This document shows, one piece after another, positions 1 through 9,684 of a DNA stretch of 64,000 nt. The stretch is from Styela clava. Lineage: Eukaryota. Below the pieces are notes generated by a model that saw only the letters and a program-made list of their open reading frames with translations, had not been told where the DNA came from and did not search any database. The stretch spans positions 2,046,001-2,110,000 of the forward strand of contig NC_135264.1 of NCBI RefSeq assembly GCF_964204865.1, read 5' to 3'. The translations under genes and the position numbers were made by a program. Numbering within the stretch: the stretch's first letter is position 1; each line of letters begins with the position of its first letter.

Positions 1-496
1 TGTTCCAAAATTTTTTTTGAATTGTGCAAATTTAATGTTGCCCGACAAAGATAGTTGGAGTGCAATGAAAACTGTCGGACAACTGCGTCATGAAAAAGAT
101 CAGAAATTACAACCGAACGAAGACTCCCTTTATAGACCAATCGAAAGAGAAACTAGGGTTTTCAATCCTGTTGTAATACCCAAAAAATTACAAAAAGAAT
201 TACCATATAAAGTAAGACCGAAGTTACGAAGAGAAAAAATAGAAAGCAGACAAGAAGGAATGATGAAAGTTGCGATTGTCAGAGAACCGAAAGATAGAAA
301 AATAGTCGAACTTATGACAGCATTGCGTGCGCTTGATCATGACAAAAAGAAAAAGACCAAACAAGAGAAGAGGGTCAAATATCTCAAGCACAGAGAAATG
401 TTAGAAAAAGAGGAAATCAAAAATAAATGGAAACATAAAGAAGCAAAAAGGAAAGCTTACGCAATGCTGAATCAAAAACAGAAGAAGAAAAGATAG
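1..496 (+). CDS. BMS1: Ribosome biogenesis GTPase BMS1, C-terminal coding part (5' incomplete)
   Basis: Frame is open from base 2: VPKFFLNCANLMLP..WSAMKTVGQLR..NEDSLYRPIERETRVFNPVVIPKKLQKELPYK. This matches the BMS1 C-terminus I recognise, followed by a basic coiled tail. TAG at 494-496; AATAAA at 818-823. Confidence 0.92.
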   Translation, partial: VPKFFLNCANLMLPDKDSWSAMKTVGQLRHEKDQKLQPNEDSLYRPIERETRVFNPVVIPKKLQKELPYKVRPKLRREKIESRQEGMMKVAIVREPKDRKIVELMTALRALDHDKKKKTKQEKRVKYLKHREMLEKEEIKNKWKHKEAKRKAYAMLNQKQKKKR

Positions 497-1149
497 GAAA
501 TTTAGTTACACTTGAAGAGCTTCTCATTGTATCTTATATGCTAAATTAAAGCATGAAAGCTATTCAGAATTTTCGACTTATAAGGGCATTAACTAAATAG
601 ATACCAAATAGAAACAATTTTCTTTTACATTTATTAATATCATCCAATTGTATTTTCCACTAAGGCAGCCAGTGTTATGTTGATTGATCCATAGTAATTT
701 TTTGAAAAGAGAGATATTGCATGAAAGGCAGTGTTTCTATTCTTGCATATTCTTTGAAAATACTTTTAGGGGATTTATTTGTGTTTCTTAGCTAAATTTT
801 TCGAATAATGTTAATTGAATAAACAAACAGTCTACTGTCAGGTAGCTTACATGTCATTTTTTTCTCGTACTGCATCTTGTTTAAAAGACATGTATTTGTG
901 TCAAAACTAAGGTTATTTGCATACTACTGTATTTGAAATGGTATTGTAATTATTGATGCCATCATAGACTAATGCTAAATTGTGCTTTCATGTATGTCTT
1001 TCTCCCTCCTCTGGATAGGAACAGTCCTATTTCACTAAGTGTCTTATTATTTTCTTTGCCTAGATGATTACCTAATTTCAGGCACATTAAATTAACATTT
1101 GAGTACTGATTGGCATGAAGACTGAAGTTGTTTTGTGAATATTACAAAC

Positions 1150-1677
1150 ATGGGAAGACGTTATTACTGTGAATTCTGCGATCGGGCATTTTTAGACAAT
1201 CTGAATGCGAGAAAGAAGCATGTTGTGAGCAGTACGCATCAACAGTTGCGGAAGGCCTATTATGACAAATTCAAAACTAAGCAACAAAAGCTGAATGACG
1301 AACTTGCAAAGCCACGAATATGCAAATATTACCAGAATTCAGGGAATTGCCAATTTGGGTCTAGTTGCCGATACCGTCATATTAGCGATGTCGAAATAGA
1401 GAGAATAAAGAAAGAAATTAATGAAGAATCAAAAAAAGATGAAATGAGCAATAGAACTGTCAAAAACTGGCTTTCTTTAAACAAACAAAAACAAATCAGC
1501 AAAGAAAAGCTTGAGAAAACTGGTGGTGCTGCGGTCTCTGAGCGGAAAATCCCTGACATCCCTCAAACATCAACTGTACTCCCAGATTCTTTGAAGCAGT
1601 TGCCCTTTCTTCCTTTGTCGATGCAACCACCTCCAGAAGATGGTTGGCCACGACTTAATGAGGTTGAATGGGGATGA
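1150..1677 (+). CDS. ZMAT5: Zinc finger matrin-type protein 5 (U11/U12 snRNP 20 kDa), single coding exon, 175 aa
   Basis: ATG at 1150. MGRRYYCEFCDRAFLDNLNARKKH...H (matrin/U1-type finger), then a CCCH finger CKYYQNSGNCQFGSSCRYRH, and C-terminal LPLSMQPPPEDGWP...EWG typical of ZMAT5. Confidence 0.93.
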   Translation: MGRRYYCEFCDRAFLDNLNARKKHVVSSTHQQLRKAYYDKFKTKQQKLNDELAKPRICKYYQNSGNCQFGSSCRYRHISDVEIERIKKEINEESKKDEMSNRTVKNWLSLNKQKQISKEKLEKTGGAAVSERKIPDIPQTSTVLPDSLKQLPFLPLSMQPPPEDGWPRLNEVEWG

Positions 1678-1926
1678 TATGATTGGGCCTTTTGACATGG
1701 ATTTCATGTTGATCATTGGTCCTTTGTAAGGCTTGCATGAATTGTAAAACAGAGTAGACAAAAAGTGGTATCTGTGCTGGCGGTGAATTGATGCTCAATT
1801 AAGAATTATTATTAAGGCATTGGATTCTTTGCGATTTCAAGGCAATATAAATTACATTGGTGAGAAACTGTGAATCAGCGTTCTAACTTGAAAAAACTGG
1901 AATCATCTTAAATTTGGACATAAATT

Positions 1927-2155
1927 GGTGCTCCAGAAGTGTGTGTACCAATATGGAGGTAACTAATTTTGTTCGCCTACTTTACATCAGGTTGTGTGAA
2001 GGGACTGAAACCTATGGGCAGGGGTTATGGTATATTCACTTGGCTAACAGAGACAGTCCCTGAACTCGTAATAAACTTAAAATAAGGAAAATTCGGAATA
2101 AAATTCGGAAGGTTATGGCCTTACCCTAACCTGGTACACATACTACGGGAGCACC
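1927..2155 (+). mobile_element. MITE family A (about 215-230 bp, 24-bp TIR GGTGCTCC.G.AGT.TGTGTACCA)
   Basis: Ends ggtgctccagaagtgtgtgtacca and tggtacacatactacgggagcacc are inverted repeats. Homologous copies at 5058-5274 (reverse) and 47167-47376. Confidence 0.85.
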
Positions 2156-2282
2156 TATAAATTATTGTTTCGATCAATGGTATATATGAAATCAGGACAG
2201 AGAACTCATCTATGATTATATTTATTGCCCAGGTATTTGTCAAAGTTCATTTTGTAATATAAAATTAAAATAAAGCAGCACA

Positions 2283-5200
2283 ATGTGGGGTGCCGCTAGA
2301 GGAACTTTTCAAAGATGTGCGATACCTGTTTTAACAGCATGTACGGTCGAAACAAAAATTAATTCAAGGAATGTTTTAAGACCAGTGTCAAGAACACTTG
2401 CTGTAAGTTCATTTCAGTATTGCTATTGTAAATTCAAGTTCATGGTGTTGAACTCTACTATGTTGGTGTGACCGATTAAAAATCTTTGATTCTAATACTG
2501 TGCCTAGCAGCCCACATCCATTGGGTAGTTTCATGTCAAACTTGAATAAACTGGCCTTTTCAAGATATATCAGCTCTTCAACGTTGATAAATTTTGATTT
2601 AGTGAATTATTTCGTGTAGAATTTGTCTAAAAACCAAATTTGTTTCATTCAAAATCACAACAACGCAACATCAGGGAAAATCTATGTTCCAATTGGCATC
2701 TAGTTTCAATCGACACGCATTTTCCTCTGATAGTAATAAAGGGTATTAAAAAACAGCAACACACAAAAACTCTGACTGCCGTCCAAGTACCCCTGGAAAT
2801 CTTCTCGTGAACCCCTGGGGGTTCGCGAACCCCAGGTTGAGAACCCCTGATTTAGATACTTGTAAGTTTGTAACTAAATATTTTCCTCTTCATACGTGCA
2901 TATAATATATTGGTCGATACTGAAATAATACATCTATTCTGAAATAAAAATAATAAAAAAAAATTAATACCTTCAGAAATACATTATAAAAGTTCAATGC
3001 TTCAAATTTCTTTTTCAGGTATCATCAGTGCAATTCAATTCACCGAAACGAGGTTTTCTTGAAAATTTTTTAGATAATCTTAAACAAGAATATAACAAAG
3101 ACGCAGAATTAAAAGAGAGTATTAAAAAATTTCGAAAGGAAGCACAAGAACTTGAAGATTCAGAGGTAAAAGTTTCCTGTGTGCTATAATACCTAGTTCA
3201 GATTTTATTGCACCATATCTAATCCTAATTACCGGTTTTCCATCTCTTTGATATATATCTTCTGCGTAGAAGAATGTCTTCAATAATAATGTACCAATGA
3301 CATCTATTTTTTAATGTAATTTTACAGGCACTTAAAAAAGCAAGACAAAAATATGAGGAGATCAGTCGAGAAACTGGACAAGGTACAGATGCCGTTCGTG
3401 AAACACTTGGAAAAATAAAAAGCAGAGTATCTGAGGTGCTTCTTATTTTAAAATAACAACAAAATATTCGAAATGTGTGAATAATATTAATTTTAAGTAA
3501 TTGTTTTAAAGCATTTATAAAAAAGTCATCATAATTGTTATTTTTTTATGGATATGACAGCAAATATAAAAAGATTTCCCAACGTTATAGCTGACCACAG
3601 CCTTACGTCTTAGTCACAGCCTTAGGTGTTAAGTAAATAATATTTCAGCCAACTTATTGCATGCATAAATGAGAGGCGTGTTTTAATGTGTGTCCAGAAA
3701 AGTTGCGGCGAGAAATTTCGCAGCGGGAAATCTCGCCATAGGAAAATACGCGCATAAAAAATCATCTCAAGCTTTTTGCTGTAAAACAAGTATTTCTGAT
3801 TAAAACAGTTAAGTTTATAGGGTTAGGGTATGCTCTTAAATAAGAATCTTTTTTTAATAAAAAGGTACTTCAAAAACCTAACTGCTTTTATCACAAATAC
3901 TTGTTTTACAGCAAATGCTCATGCAACGATTTTTCTTATGTGGCGAAATTTTCTGCAGCAAGATTTCCTACGGCGAATTTTCCTAGAACCGTTTCTAATG
4001 CTGTTATATCAACCATAAACAGTACTTCAATCAAATTCAAAGACAATTGGACACTAACAGAGATCATTAGTTTTCATGTCATTTCTTAAATTTGTTGATA
4101 GGCCAGTGAAGAAATCAGTAAAACAGAATTTGTCAAACAAGCAAGTCGGGTGTCAGAAGGAATCAGTGAAGCTGCAAAATCTGCAACAGATAGTGAAGCT
4201 TTCAAAAAAGTAGCCTCAGGTTTCGATAACATCACAAAAGGAACTGGAATTCCACCTTCTTCACTGTATAGACCACCAGGTAAATAATGCTTTTCATTTC
4301 GTCGGAATTTAATACAATATAATGAATATTTGAATTCGGAAATAATTTAAAACCTTTTTATTTCAAAATTAGGAATTTCGACGCGCCAGACAAGTAGGGC
4401 TGTTCAAGCTAACCGAATATTCAAAATCGAATCACAAATTATTTGAATCGTTTTGCGGCTAGATTGGGAATTACTAAAATGAGGTACCTAAATCGAAAAA
4501 AGTCTATCCGGCACCTTTGCACGGCGTTTTTTAGCGGGCAAGCAGTGGCTTACCTGATACTAGGACGACTCTTGGTCGCAATGCCCGGTGTTATGTTATT
4601 GTTCAATTGAGACAGATATATAGGATTGCGCAATAATATTCGATACTAATCTAAAAAAAATATTCAATTTTGGACAGCCCTGCAGACAAACAGATCAAAA
4701 CATATGATATCTCAATTAGTAACAAATCCAAATTTACGTCATTTTAGATATGATCAAAATGAAGATATAATGATTTATGTAATTTTCCACATGAGCTTGC
4801 CCCCAATTTGGAATGTATTGGATATTCCGTGTTGAGAATATTTTCACAGAATGTATTCGGAATAGTGAAATATTTGATTTTGGCCACCCCTGGCTTGGTG
4901 TACAAGTTGACAACGTTTTCAATGTATTGCAGCTCTCATCTGGTCACTTGAAATTTATTGCCATTATATGTTGATAACATTTTCTGTCAAAGTTTGTAAT
5001 ATATTTGATAAGACAAATGAGCTTGGAATTATTTAGCGAGCATATTGATAAAAATATGGTACTCCTGTAGTGTATGTACCAGGTTAAGGTGAGGCCATAA
5101 TTTTATTCCGATTTTCCTTATCTTATTTCTTTTACGAATTTGGAGACTGTCTGTGTTAGCCAAGCGAATATATCCCCTGCCCATAGGTTTCAACACCTTT

Positions 5201-8200
5201 ACGCAACTTGACGTAAGGTGGGCGAACAAAATTAGTTCCCTCCATATTGGTACCACACACTTCTGTGGAGCACCAAAAATAATATAATGCAATATAACTT
5301 GAGAATTAGAAGTTGTAACTTGTAGTACCTGTGCTGTGCACTTCATTTAGCCTTGGTGAAAAAGACTTACCGTATTTATTCAATTACAACGCGCACTCGT
5401 GTATTTAAATTTTGAATGAAAATTGGTATAAAATTCTTTTTTTTATTTTTTCTCTAAGTCGAAAGTCATGGGAGTTTCATCCATGTTGCCTATCTGTGAG
5501 AGTTCAAAGTTGTGCTGCTTACGCATACTGATTATAAATGTATGAAATAAATGGATCTTTTCTTCTAAATCTTGAGGCAACTTTTGTGCAATTTTTGTTT
5601 TCTGGCGTAGTGCAAGTCCATGCCTTCTCATAAACTTTTGTGCCCAACCATTAAATGCTTTAAAGGTTGAATCTTTGCAAATCTTTTGTGCACGGAGTCT
5701 AATATGGAGCGAAGTGACGATGTACCCACTAGATCTTTGATCAACTATCCAATCATAAAGCTCCTTCTCCAACTCTGGGTACCGGGCTTGTCTCCCTCGC
5801 CGCGCTTTCTTTGTTTTGTTCATATCTTTTAGAACAATTTTCTGCTTTCTCCAATCTCTGACATTTGTCTCTGGTACATTGAATTCTCTAGAAGCTTTTC
5901 TATTTCCATGAGTTTCCGCATAATCAACAACCTCCAGTTTGAATGCAGCCCTATATGCAGAACGTTTTTGTCTTGCCATAATAGATAATGGGTAATATAT
6001 AATGGGTATCTACAGTACAGTACGATAATGGCAAATAAATATTCTCAACGCAGCGGGAATGTCAAACGCATGCTGAGCTGTCGCATGTGCGTGTGCTTGC
6101 ACGAAATCGAACGCTTGCACGAATGTCAAACGCACGCTGAGCTGTCGCATGTGCGTGTGCTTGCACGAAATCGTCCTGCATTAAATTGTGCATGCGCGAG
6201 CGCACGCACGTTTCAGATGTTTAAAACCACATTTTCAATACCGCATTTCTCAGACCTCGTGTATAACGCGCAGCATTGATTTTTGCCTAAAATTCAGTTC
6301 AAAATTTTGCGCGTTATAATCGAATAAATACGGTACATGTGAAGGTTGCATTTTAAGAGGTTAAAAAGATAATGGGTGTCACTTTATAATCATTGAGTTC
6401 CAAGAATCTTAAGAACAGTGAAATGCGCTCCTTGTGATAAGACCTATGAAACACTGGTACCGACATTTCTAGTATGTGCTAAAAAGTTCGAACTAAATAG
6501 CGACATTTTCTGAAACGAGTAGCAGATATTTCAAACTTTTATTTTTAAAATCTTCTTCCAGCATCTTTACGAATGCGAAATGAACTTCAAACAAAAATAA
6601 ACACAGAAGAAATTGAAGCAAATGAAGATGCAACTGGTGTAGTTATGCATAAAGATTCAGTTTGGAATCAACAATGGGAAAACTTTAAGAACAGTAAAGT
6701 TGGTGAACGTAAGTAAGCCCTAATAAAATTCTCAAGTATTACAGTGTTGGGTACAAATCTTTGAATGCCAAATCGTTAGTCAAGTTGAGTAACCATGTTT
6801 CATCCATTTCGAATTAATTGTTCACTGTACTCCTTAGTCGCCAGCCAAGTTGAGTTCAAAGATTTAATAAACAAAAGTGAAATGGATAAATATGAGTCAA
6901 ATTGACACTATTACATTCACCGCACATTAGTTAAAAAGTCATAATGTATGGACAACATTTACCTTGGCAGTAACGTGTCTTGAGTATTTCCACAAACTAT
7001 CCATGTTGTGAATCATATTTCATCAGTGTTTTTCTCTCTATTTCAAAGACACTGTCAAAATTCTGATCCGTAAACTAGTTTTTCCAGAGGTTTGTCATAT
7101 TCAAGTTGAGTCTTTTTATGTCGATGACTCAGGTCACTGTCATATAAAAAGGTGTTTTGACTTCAGTCACTGACTCCAGTCTCCCCCAACACTATTAGGT
7201 CCATGGTTCTTAGTATAAATTTGTCATCATATTGGCTTTACTCTGCCCGAAGATAATTTTTCCATTATTTGGATTCTAGATTGTCACTGGCATATTTTGT
7301 GTTGATGAATATGGCAGTTCATATCTTGTGTAAGTTTATATTAATAATAAAATTTTTATCGATATTTCAAGGGATATCAGATTTAAGAATGAAATATGAT
7401 GAGAGTGACAACCCGATGATAAGAGCATCACGTTTCATAACAGAAAAAATCGGAGATGTAGCAGGTATAAATCAATACACACTTTCATAATTTTCAAAAT
7501 CCTGAGTTCTACATTTGAAGAATGTTTCAATGGCTGTGGCAACGAACCCAATCGGCACTATTGGATGTATGTAATGGAATTGTTTCTTCAAACACAGTAT
7601 GCACATCTTTAATACTGAAACACATATTTTGGGAACTTTTATTGTTGGTATTAGGTCTTGATTTATTAATTTCGTAAATTTCTAAACAGGAGGTGTTTTC
7701 GGTAAAACTGATGTCTCTGAAGTGATGACGGAAATTGCGAAAATGGAACCAAATTTTTCAGCACAAAGTTTCTTAAGATTTTGTCGTAAAGAGCTCATTC
7801 CTAATATACTTGAAGCTATTTGTCAAAACGAAAAAGAAATCGTTAAAGACTGGTGCACAGAAGCAGTAAGTACTATCCTTTGTCTGCAGGGGTGGGCAAG
7901 GTTTTTGTACCTTTTGTACCAGGGGCCGAGAATTTTGCCCACCTAGACTGCCGGGCCATGTAAGTGTGACGTGAAATGTTACATTTTATGAACAATATTC
8001 ACAATGTTACAAAAGCAAAAGTGGAAAACAATAAGTCTCGTGCCAAAACTAAACTTGATTGCAATCTCAACAAATTCCTTGAGCTATTTTTAAACTTATT
8101 AAACATCAAATATCATCATTTGGTTTTAGTTTGGTTGTGGCAGCATCAGACTGGCCAGATTGAATTACCCAACGAGCCAGAATTGGCGGCATATTTTTCC

Positions 8201-9684
8201 CATGTCAGTTCTATACTTGATAGATACTTGTAATATTAATATGGTAACATGTGCCTAACTTTGTTCATAAATATTTGATATAAATAATACTTCCAAGTTT
8301 AGTAAAATTCACTAATATATCTAAATTGGAATTTACTTTTTAATAAGGTACCGTAATTTTGATAACCTTGTATAACTAATCATGAAAAGTTATTTTTCTG
8401 AAATTCCCACCGATTGGCCAAGTTCCTGTATCATATTTATGTTGTGAAGATGCACCGTTTTTAAACTTCAACAAACCGTTTAATACTTATATTAAAATTT
8501 AAATAAGTTCGTCATGTTAATTGTAGTAACGATTCAAAATTCTTTTATTTCATATTTTAGCCATATACTCAGTTAATATTCCCGATCACTCAAGCGGAAC
8601 AACACGGTCTTCGTTATCACTCCAGGGTGATAGATCTTGATCATATCGATATTGCGGCTGCAACAAAGGTACGAGATATAGCTCGTTTATTACACGATAC
8701 GTTTATATGCGTGACATTTGTGAGTCTGAATGCTTGTCAAATTATATTTATTAGCTTTCATGTCCTGTTACCAGTCCATGTCGGGTATGGAATTATTTAG
8801 CCGATTATTTGTTTTCAGTTGCATGGACTTCATGGTGGAGAAAGTCGTAACAGACCAGCAGTTACGTGAACCACCTTACAGCGGTGAGGTGTCCAGCAAT
8901 CCTCTCGCACATAATTAACTCTGTACAGAATTCAATCCTACAACTCATGCAGGGTAATCAGAGATGCAGTGGCGAGCTTATTCCTAACGCTCAACACGTT
9001 GATACTTGAGTGAGAGTGAAATACAATGTTACCTGTAGTATTTATGAGACAAGAGAGCTATGCTCAAATATATGGACACGTAGCGCCACCCAGTGGCAAT
9101 AATTTTGATGACGTCATAGCGAGAGAAAAAAAGTAATAGCCTTCTGGAGAAAAATTTTATCTTTAACCATTGAAAATATCAAAGCAATTGGTCCAGTACA
9201 ATACAAATAACAATAACAACAAAATTTTGAAACGATCATTATGGCCACTAAACGTGTCCAATAAAACTGGTCAATTTGTATTGATCCTTCTTTGTCTATT
9301 TCTTGTAAAAGTATTATTTTTCTATATCTCAGGTTGATCAGGGTCCTGTACTTGTCATTAGTTTTCAAACACAGCAAATTATTTATGTTCAAAATTCTAG
9401 AGGTGAAGTTGTTGAAGGTGATGCGGTAAGTAGTCATTTTTGTTTGTTTCAAAAAAACCTAAAATATTCAGATGCTTAATATGATCAATACTGTGTAGTT
9501 GAAAATATTTGAATTTAGTTTGATTGTTGAGCAATGAGTTTTATTCATGTTTGTGATGTTACAGGAACAAGTGATGAGAGTATATCATGTGTGGGCTCTT
9601 TGTCGTGACCTAGAAGAGATGAACCCAAGAGCTGCTTGGAGGCTGATCGATCAGTCTATGTCAGCCACCCCAATGTTACTATAA
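2283..9684 (+). CDS. TIMM44: Mitochondrial import inner membrane translocase TIM44, 10 exons, about 429 aa
   Basis: join(2283..2402,3019..3165,3328..3435,4102..4279,6562..6708,7372..7464,7690..7865,8561..8668,9333..9425,9565..9684). All introns are GT-AG and phase-consistent (1290 nt). Arg/Ser-rich presequence; motifs RGFLENFLDNLKQE..KESIKKFR, MKYDESDNPMIRASR, IPNILEA..KDWCTEA, QGPVLVISFQTQQ, YHVWALCRD..AAWRLID. Confidence 0.95.
3690..3991. mobile_element. Foldback-like MITE in TIMM44 intron 3
   Basis: Arms are built from repeated GAAATTTCGC-like units in inverted orientation, with central agggttaggg. Boundaries are approximate. Confidence 0.5.
4395..4682. mobile_element. hAT-type MITE
   Basis: TIR tagggctgttcaa / ttggacagccctg. 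Flanks cagacaag / cagacaaa fit an 8-bp TSD (7/8 match). Confidence 0.75.
5058..5274 (-). mobile_element. MITE family A copy
   Basis: Reverse-complement homologue of 1927-2155 over its whole length. Confidence 0.85.
5443..5979 (-). CDS. Truncated pogo transposase: Brinker-type DBD plus CENP-B/Tc5 HTH, ending just after the first catalytic Asp
   Basis: YRAAFKLEVVDYAE..GNRKASREFNV..VRDWRK; YPELEKELYDWI..QR; FKAFNGWAQKFMRRHGL; IGNMDETPMTFD, then stop. Confidence 0.8.
   Translation of the reverse strand: MARQKRSAYRAAFKLEVVDYAETHGNRKASREFNVPETNVRDWRKQKIVLKDMNKTKKARRGRQARYPELEKELYDWIVDQRSSGYIVTSLHIRLRAQKICKDSTFKAFNGWAQKFMRRHGLALRQKTKIAQKLPQDLEEKIHLFHTFIISMRKQHNFELSQIGNMDETPMTFDLEKK
6057..6173. repeat. 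Tandem duplication, about 53-bp unit, 64-bp period, inside the pogo 5' region
   Basis: gaatgtcaaacgca(t/c)gctgagctgtcgcatgtgcgtgtgcttgcacgaaatcg at 6057 and 6121. Confidence 0.9.
8830..9000 (-). mobile_element. tRNA-derived SINE-like repeat copy
   Basis: Shares the core atgtgc.aga.gattgctggac.cctc.ccg...ggtggttc.cgtaa with 17517-17567. Degenerate A-box-like head near 8980-9000. Confidence 0.6.

What the first reader, a model, noticed from the sequence alone, without database searches (positions are those of the whole stretch)
800..2300. Putative trans-spliced operon BMS1-ZMAT5-TIMM44 with near-zero intercistronic spacing
Seen: three unrelated housekeeping genes on one strand, about 600-650 bp from stop to next ATG. 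At both junctions a poly(A) hexamer is followed within a few bases by an AG. At the first, AATAAA(818-823)caaacAG is followed by an 11-nt segment, GT(842) and a good acceptor at 1063. At the second, AATAAA(2269-2274)gcAG cacaATG puts the TIMM44 ATG only 8 nt after the hexamer, and a MITE fills much of the gap. Established: ascidian operons are resolved by SL trans-splicing with the upstream 3' end abutting the downstream acceptor. Inference: one polycistronic pre-mRNA links ribosome biogenesis, the minor spliceosome and mitochondrial import.
Basis: partly seen in the sequence, partly recalled or inferred. Interest (0 to 1): 0.7.

Follow-up and report, generated by a model that had tools for sequence, protein, structure and literature searches.

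The report
Zero-gap sea-squirt operon, junctions relocated
In a sea squirt, the message of one housekeeping gene ends at the very base where the next gene's message receives its spliced leader, and a third gene likely follows in the same way; this is an ordinary new example of an operon type already known from the sea squirt Ciona.

Summary
The window is from Styela clava. It holds intronless BMS1, intronless ZMAT5 and 10-exon TIMM44 on one strand. Junction 1 has RNA-contig support. BMS1 contigs of two studies stop at 1064, and one contig carries the 3' end of the stolidobranch spliced leader joined at AG 1062-1063. The genome has a tandem array of predicted SL RNA genes. So there is no intercistronic DNA, as in Ciona. 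The proposed 11-nt exon and 842-1063 intron are not seen. AATAAA 818 lies 240 nt inside the BMS1 3' UTR. AATAAA 2269 lies inside RNA that a TIMM44 contig covers from 2236. Junction 2 is inferred at AG 2231-2232; no SL was seen there. Ciona BMS1 and ZMAT5 appear to lie on different contigs, so nothing supports a conserved functional link. The scan has already noted several ascidian operons of this kind on other DNA. New member of a known kind.

The parts
1..496 (+). 3' end of the BMS1 coding sequence. The whole CDS is one open frame of 1116 aa starting 2.85 kb before the window (L008:3146 = G000:C19:2043146), so it is intronless. Likely the first gene of the operon.
   Evidence: single match in the genome; RNA contigs without joints
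497..1063 (+). BMS1 3' UTR (567 nt), unspliced, ending at the G of the AG
   Evidence: X1 and X10 contigs end at 1064 (an A, which fits the first A of a poly(A) tail; X1 has 6 further unlisted letters); no joint
818..823 (+). AATAAA inside the BMS1 3' UTR, 240 nt before the observed 3' end; no sign that it marks the junction
   Evidence: contigs of 7 of 7 runs pass through it to at least 953
1062..1063 (+). Junction 1: trans-splice acceptor AG of ZMAT5 and last bases of the BMS1 message
   Evidence: X10 contig has 14 leader letters joined before 1062; with the AG they equal the last 16 nt of the published stolidobranch SL
1064..1149 (+). ZMAT5 5' UTR (86 nt) with two short upstream frames, 1064-1075 (MIT, starting at the first base after the SL) and 1115-1138 (7 codons)
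   Evidence: translation of these frames not tested
1150..1677 (+). ZMAT5 (U11/U12 20K protein) coding sequence, intronless, 175 aa
   Evidence: single match in the genome
1678..2232 (+). Inferred ZMAT5 3' UTR (555 nt); RNA contigs cover it into the MITE and again to 2201
   Evidence: X1, X2, X4 contigs reach 1954; an X1 contig covers 2076-2201; 2165-2410 has one match in the genome
1925..2157 (.). High-copy MITE with terminal inverted arms, inside the inferred ZMAT5 3' UTR; holds AATAAA at 2070 and 2097
   Evidence: (3412 first-look candidates, 40 scored)
2231..2232 (+). Junction 2 (inferred): likely trans-splice acceptor of TIMM44 and 3' end of ZMAT5
   Evidence: lies in the 34-nt gap between contigs ending 2201 and starting 2236; ranks 1 of 29 AGs in a weak acceptor model; no SL read seen
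2233..2282 (+).
   Evidence: X1 contig covers 2236-2402 without other letters and splices on to 3019
2283..9684 (+). TIMM44 coding sequence, 10 exons, 429 aa; last gene of the proposed operon
   Evidence: introns 1 and 2 seen spliced in RNA contigs

Best explanation
BMS1 and ZMAT5 form a Ciona-type operon with no DNA between the two messages, and TIMM44 is likely its third gene. Shown in RNA contigs: the BMS1 message ends at the AG at 1062-1063, and the spliced leader is joined to ZMAT5 at the next base. Inferred: one promoter upstream of BMS1 makes a long precursor. SL trans-splicing at 1063|1064 gives ZMAT5 a capped 5' end, and the same cut frees the 3' end of BMS1, which is then polyadenylated without a nearby AATAAA. 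A second cut, likely at AG 2231-2232, would do the same for ZMAT5 and TIMM44. The grouping is likely a shared-promoter arrangement of broadly expressed genes rather than a functional module.
For:: the X10 ZMAT5 contig has 14 loose leader letters before 1062; the X10 and X1 BMS1 contigs (two studies) both end at 1064; those letters plus AG equal the 3' end of the SL listed for Halocynthia, Polyandrocarpa and Botryllus; 716 genomic copies of the 16-mer against 1 for the control, and a tandem array on C8 (6 units in the 10 kb fetched, period 1634 bp) reading SL exon, GTAAGT donor, predicted hairpin, Sm-like site; one X2 contig runs 1-1954 across junction 1, while a TIMM44 intron bin (2458-2574) has no cover in 4 of 4 runs, so RNA crosses the junction. 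No AATAAA lies within 40 nt upstream of 1063 or 2232, as in 16 of 18 Ciona operons (PMC1488885, passages). The first gene is single-exon, as in 60% of Ciona operons (PMC2760879, section 10). For junction 2, ZMAT5-side RNA reaches 2201 and TIMM44 RNA starts by 2236.
Against: The SL joint is seen in 1 of 7 runs laid, in one contig, and that run is not on record as RNA (it behaves as RNA: no cover at L008:2826-3177). The data are assembled contigs, not reads: they show no strand, no transcription start and no full-length polycistronic molecule. The poly(A) tail itself was not read. The acceptor model is weak: it ranks the RNA-supported site 1063 only 4 of 34, and 2275 second of 29. Three runs of one study stop at 953-954 with a hole over junction 1, unexplained. 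An internal promoter for ZMAT5 or TIMM44 was not testable.
Confidence: 0.78

Rival explanations
1. Only BMS1-ZMAT5 is an operon; TIMM44 is a close neighbour with its own promoter (or an extra internal promoter) near the MITE, with or without trans-splicing.
For: No SL seen at the TIMM44 5' end; the X1 contig simply starts at 2236. The MITE carries AATAAA at 2070 and 2097 that could end ZMAT5 early, and a TATA-like run lies at 2181-2187.
Against: RNA covers the MITE's right end and unique flank to 2201, leaving at most 34 nt between the two messages. A pyrimidine-rich AG that resembles junction 1 sits in that gap. X1 contigs also lack the SL at ZMAT5, where X10 shows it, so its absence in X1 says little.
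Confidence: 0.14
2. ZMAT5 is a separately transcribed trans-spliced gene whose promoter and outron lie inside the 3' part of BMS1; BMS1 ends at the same AG only because its run-on transcripts are cut there too.
For: Not excluded: contigs cannot show transcription starts. PMC11155486 (passages) discusses two-promoter models for Ciona trans-spliced genes.
Against: The BMS1 3' end matches the acceptor to the base in two studies, with no hexamer nearby. This implies that BMS1-initiated RNA is itself cut by trans-splicing and so yields ZMAT5 message (argument of PMC1488885, passages).
Confidence: 0.06
3. One reading: AATAAA-directed cleavage a few bases before AG 830 and AG 2275/2278, SL added there, and an 11-nt exon cis-spliced 842 to 1063.
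For: The letters are present; AG 2275 ranks 2 of 29 in the weak acceptor model, so minor SL use there is possible.
Against: Contigs of 7 of 7 runs pass unspliced through 842-953; the joint table (4 runs, complete) is empty. The SL is joined at 1064. TIMM44 RNA extends 40 nt upstream of 2276. The pattern is common (35 of 93). A spacing of 3-6 nt is shorter than the usual 10-30 nt from hexamer to cleavage site (recalled knowledge).
Confidence: 0.02

Closest known systems
SL-resolved operons without intercistronic DNA of Ciona intestinalis/robusta (PMC1488885: passages and section 14 read; PMC2760879: passages and section 10 read; 1,310 operons, 185 with three genes)
   Same: Upstream 3' end at the G of the acceptor AG, SL on the next base, no AATAAA within 40 nt, single-exon first gene, unrelated housekeeping genes.
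   Different: Stolidobranch species with a 24-nt SL instead of Ciona's 16-nt SL. This gene pair appears not to be linked in Ciona (different contig lengths). The second gene is intronless too, and a MITE sits in its inferred 3' UTR.
Caenorhabditis SL1-type operons (as described in passages of PMC1488885)
   Same: Little or no intercistronic sequence; resolved by the general SL.
   Different: Those upstream genes carry a canonical AATAAA near the junction; here none lies within 40 nt.
Oikopleura dioica operons (as described in passages of PMC1488885 and PMC7986045)
   Same: Tunicate, one SL for operon and non-operon genes, upstream genes without AATAAA.
   Different: Oikopleura keeps 23-30 nt of intercistronic DNA and has a 40-nt SL; junction 1 here has none.

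Membership tests
Ciona-type SL-resolved operon | Organism has SL RNA genes and SL trans-splicing | tested here: met
   Tandem array with SL exon, donor, predicted hairpin and Sm-like site on C8; SL equals published stolidobranch SL; no Rfam match
Ciona-type SL-resolved operon | Same-strand genes with mRNA ends under 100 bp apart | tested here: met
   Junction 1: 0 nt. Junction 2: at most 34 nt between contigs
Ciona-type SL-resolved operon | Downstream gene carries the SL (ZMAT5) | tested here: met
   One X10 contig, 1 of 7 runs laid
Ciona-type SL-resolved operon | Downstream gene carries the SL (TIMM44) | tested here: inconclusive
   No SL in 4 runs laid; 3 have no cover there; loose-end table cut (508 rows not shown)
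Ciona-type SL-resolved operon | Upstream 3' end coincides with the acceptor AG | tested here: met
   BMS1 contigs of X1 and X10 end at 1064; poly(A) letters not displayed; ZMAT5 3' end not located
Ciona-type SL-resolved operon | RNA crosses the junction (unresolved precursor) | tested here: inconclusive
   One X2 contig spans 1-1954; an X3 contig starts 15 nt before junction 1; a contig is not a single molecule; nothing spans junction 2
Ciona-type SL-resolved operon | One promoter, no internal transcription start | not testable with these tools
   Needs TSS-seq, CAGE or ATAC; only contigs were available
Nematode SL1-type operon | Canonical AATAAA just upstream of the junction | tested here: not met
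   None within 40 nt upstream of 1063 or 2232

The most novel reading that the evidence does not exclude
This operon is young and was built by retroposition. Intronless copies of ZMAT5 and BMS1 landed in front of an existing trans-splice acceptor, took over one promoter and replaced their parent genes. Both are intronless single copies here, Clavelina BMS1 has two isoforms that differ by one residue (which suggests an intron), Ciona keeps the two genes apart, and this genome holds hundreds of dispersed SL copies. The locus would then be a datable case of how ascidian operons are born. The retrocopy idea was taken from earlier scan notes.
Probability: 0.3. Interest if true: 0.55.

Novelty: new member of a known kind. 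Interest (0 to 1): 0.3.

Why it matters
It extends zero-spacer operons from Ciona to a stolidobranch ascidian with a different leader. In the library searched I found no paper on Styela operons (1 paper holds all three terms, a Ciona brain study, seen as a listing only) and none on this gene trio (0 papers); most subscription papers are not searched. About one fifth of Ciona genes are in such operons, so one more is expected. The locus is a compact test case for an open question raised in PMC1488885: whether the trans-splicing cut itself makes the upstream 3' end, and whether one precursor can yield both messages.

Tried and rejected
No run was on record as RNA; this was not used as evidence. 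Contig depth differs between the genes (TIMM44 higher), but the tool says depth cannot rank genes, so it was not used. A 30-letter loose end at 1093 in X1 is not an SL: 29 letters match one place on C4 with no splice donor after them, so it is treated as a chimeric contig. A metagenome scan for linked BMS1 loci gave 73 loci, with best segments 37-47% identical to this BMS1 among the top 15 shown, and none held ZMAT5 or the three TIMM44 exons tested; uninformative for tunicates. Rfam found nothing in the SL array. The Atlas did not hold the ZMAT5 sequence. The first acceptor model had three of nine training sites off by one base; it ranked 1063 and 2232 first, but the corrected model ranks 1063 only fourth, so only one search is cited and the model is rated weak. 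The BMS1 5' end was not reached by any contig (starts at L008:3189-3213, after the ATG at 3146), so whether BMS1 is itself trans-spliced stays open. The position of Ciona TIMM44 was not looked up. Supplementary operon lists of PMC1488885, PMC2760879 and PMC7986045 were not opened and could bear on whether any pair of these genes is in a Ciona operon. Look-ups of earlier scan findings near this place and by the Ciona ZMAT5 protein returned nothing.

Full report
Setting. The window is G000:C19:2046001-2110000 of a 377-Mb genome. A TIMM44 exon is 100% identical to a protein labelled Styela clava that lies on a contig of the same length as C19. The two best named BMS1 relatives are from Ciona and Clavelina. 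The organism is therefore a stolidobranch ascidian.

Genes. BMS1 is one open frame of 1116 aa that starts 2.85 kb before the window and stops at 496. ZMAT5 (1150-1677) matches human ZMAT5 over its full length (E 3.4e-24). TIMM44 maps as 10 exons over 2283-9684. BMS1 and ZMAT5 each have one match in the genome. The hexamer-plus-AG pattern is common, however: 35 of 93 AATAAA on the + strand have an AG ending within 7 nt.

RNA evidence. Fifteen runs were listed, all as assembled contigs and none on record as RNA. I laid 7 of them in two calls: X1-X4 on 1-3500 and X1, X5, X6, X10 on BMS1 through 1915. They behave as RNA. TIMM44 introns 1 and 2 are skipped, an intron bin has no cover in 4 of 4 runs, and the DNA just upstream of BMS1 has no cover in 4 of 4 runs.

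Junction 1. BMS1 contigs of X1 and X10, from two studies, both end at 1064, one base after AG 1062-1063. That base is an A and fits the start of a poly(A) tail, though the tail letters were not displayed. The X10 ZMAT5 contig begins with 14 letters that are not genomic here and then joins at that AG. One X2 contig runs through from 1 to 1954, and an X3 contig starts 15 nt before the junction. X4, X5 and X6, all from one study, stop at 953-954 and resume at 1131-1216, so they say nothing about the junction. Contigs of 7 of 7 runs pass unspliced through 842-953. The complete joint table is empty; the table was cut (32 rows not shown). The 11-nt exon and the 842-1063 intron are therefore not supported.

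The leader. The 14 letters plus AG equal the last 16 nt of the spliced leader listed for Botryllus, Halocynthia, Polyandrocarpa and Boltenia in PMC3795323 (passages and supplement rows). The 16-mer occurs 716 times in the genome against 1 for the reversed control, and 137 times with a following GT. Most listed GT copies form an array on C8. The 10 kb fetched hold 6 units at a 1634-bp period, each reading TATA-like box, 24-nt leader, GTAAGT, a predicted hairpin and an Sm-like site (the Sm and TATA labels are from recalled consensus). Rfam has no match.

Junction 2. ZMAT5-side contigs run into the MITE (to 1954), and one X1 contig covers 2076-2201, which includes single-copy flank. The X1 TIMM44 contig starts at 2236, and its depth alone accounts for that bin. 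The 34-nt gap holds a pyrimidine-rich AG at 2231-2232 whose last bases resemble junction 1. A small acceptor model trained on the nine TIMM44 introns ranks it 1 of 29, with 2275 second. The same model ranks the RNA-supported site 1063 only 4 of 34, so it is weak. No SL was seen at TIMM44. TIMM44 membership is inferred, at about 80%.

Mechanism. PMC1488885 (passages and section 14) reports that in Ciona operons poly(A) is added to the G of the acceptor AG, the SL is joined to the next base, and 16 of 18 operons lack AATAAA within 40 nt. Junction 1 fits all three points. The paper proposes that trans-splicing may itself make the upstream 3' end; I adopt this as the likely mechanism, and it is inferred, not shown. 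PMC2760879 (passages and section 10) counts 1,310 Ciona operons, 185 with three genes, and a single-exon first gene in 60%. BMS1 fits. The nearest upstream exon-like sequence ends about 6 kb before BMS1, so BMS1 is likely the first gene. Its own 5' end was not reached by any contig.

Conservation and origin. Ciona BMS1 (XP_078492476) is on a 9,879,317-bp contig and the Ciona ZMAT5 relative (XP_078491673; best PDB match human ZMAT5) is on a 9,518,626-bp contig. If both records come from one assembly, which their accession series suggests but I did not verify, the pair is not linked in Ciona. That argues against a conserved functional module. Clavelina BMS1 has two isoforms that differ by one residue, which hints at an intron where Styela has none. 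A retrocopy origin is possible but untested; the idea comes from earlier scan notes, which are unchecked AI notes.

Verdict. A real, RNA-supported Ciona-type operon junction between BMS1 and ZMAT5, with TIMM44 a likely third member. Searches for Styela operons and for this trio found nothing relevant in the library (listings only). The scan has noted several similar ascidian operons elsewhere. New member of a known kind; interest 0.3.

Noticed in passing
window 1064-1075 and 1115-1138: The first base after the SL is the A of an ATG that opens a 3-codon frame, and a 7-codon frame follows. These upstream frames may damp translation of ZMAT5. A second AG at 1080-1081 would skip the first one.
   Followed up: partly
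L016/L017 and L019/L020 (G000:C1, pairs 6.3-6.5 kb apart); L024/L025: Many dispersed SL copies come in same-strand pairs 5-7 kb apart with near-identical flanks, as if the leader sits within the terminal repeats of a mobile element. Described only; earlier notes report SL-bearing retroelements in this genome.
   Followed up: no
G000:C8:4230890-4576584 (L036 = 4540001-4550000): Array of predicted SL RNA genes, regular at 1634 bp in its distal part and with irregular 4-12 kb spacing in its proximal part, which suggests insertions.
   Followed up: partly
window 5443-6009, - strand: Tc5/pogo-type transposase fragment (HTH_Tnp_Tc5, BrkDBD) inside TIMM44 intron 4; a second copy of the MITE lies inverted at about 5058-5276.
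   Followed up: no
L005:2839-4401: Intronless sulfatase-like gene about 16 kb upstream of the window, broken by one in-frame stop at 3643-3645: a pseudogene, an allele or an assembly error.
   Followed up: no
window 953-954: BMS1 contigs of three runs from one study stop here with no cover over junction 1. This may be a haplotype break, a filtered record or an alternative 3' end.
   Followed up: no
L008:2650-2813 (about 3.2-3.35 kb before the window): Low-depth contigs in X1 and X10 lie 330-500 nt upstream of the BMS1 ATG and may be outron RNA. Candidate acceptors for BMS1 are at L008:3035 and 3132.
   Followed up: partly
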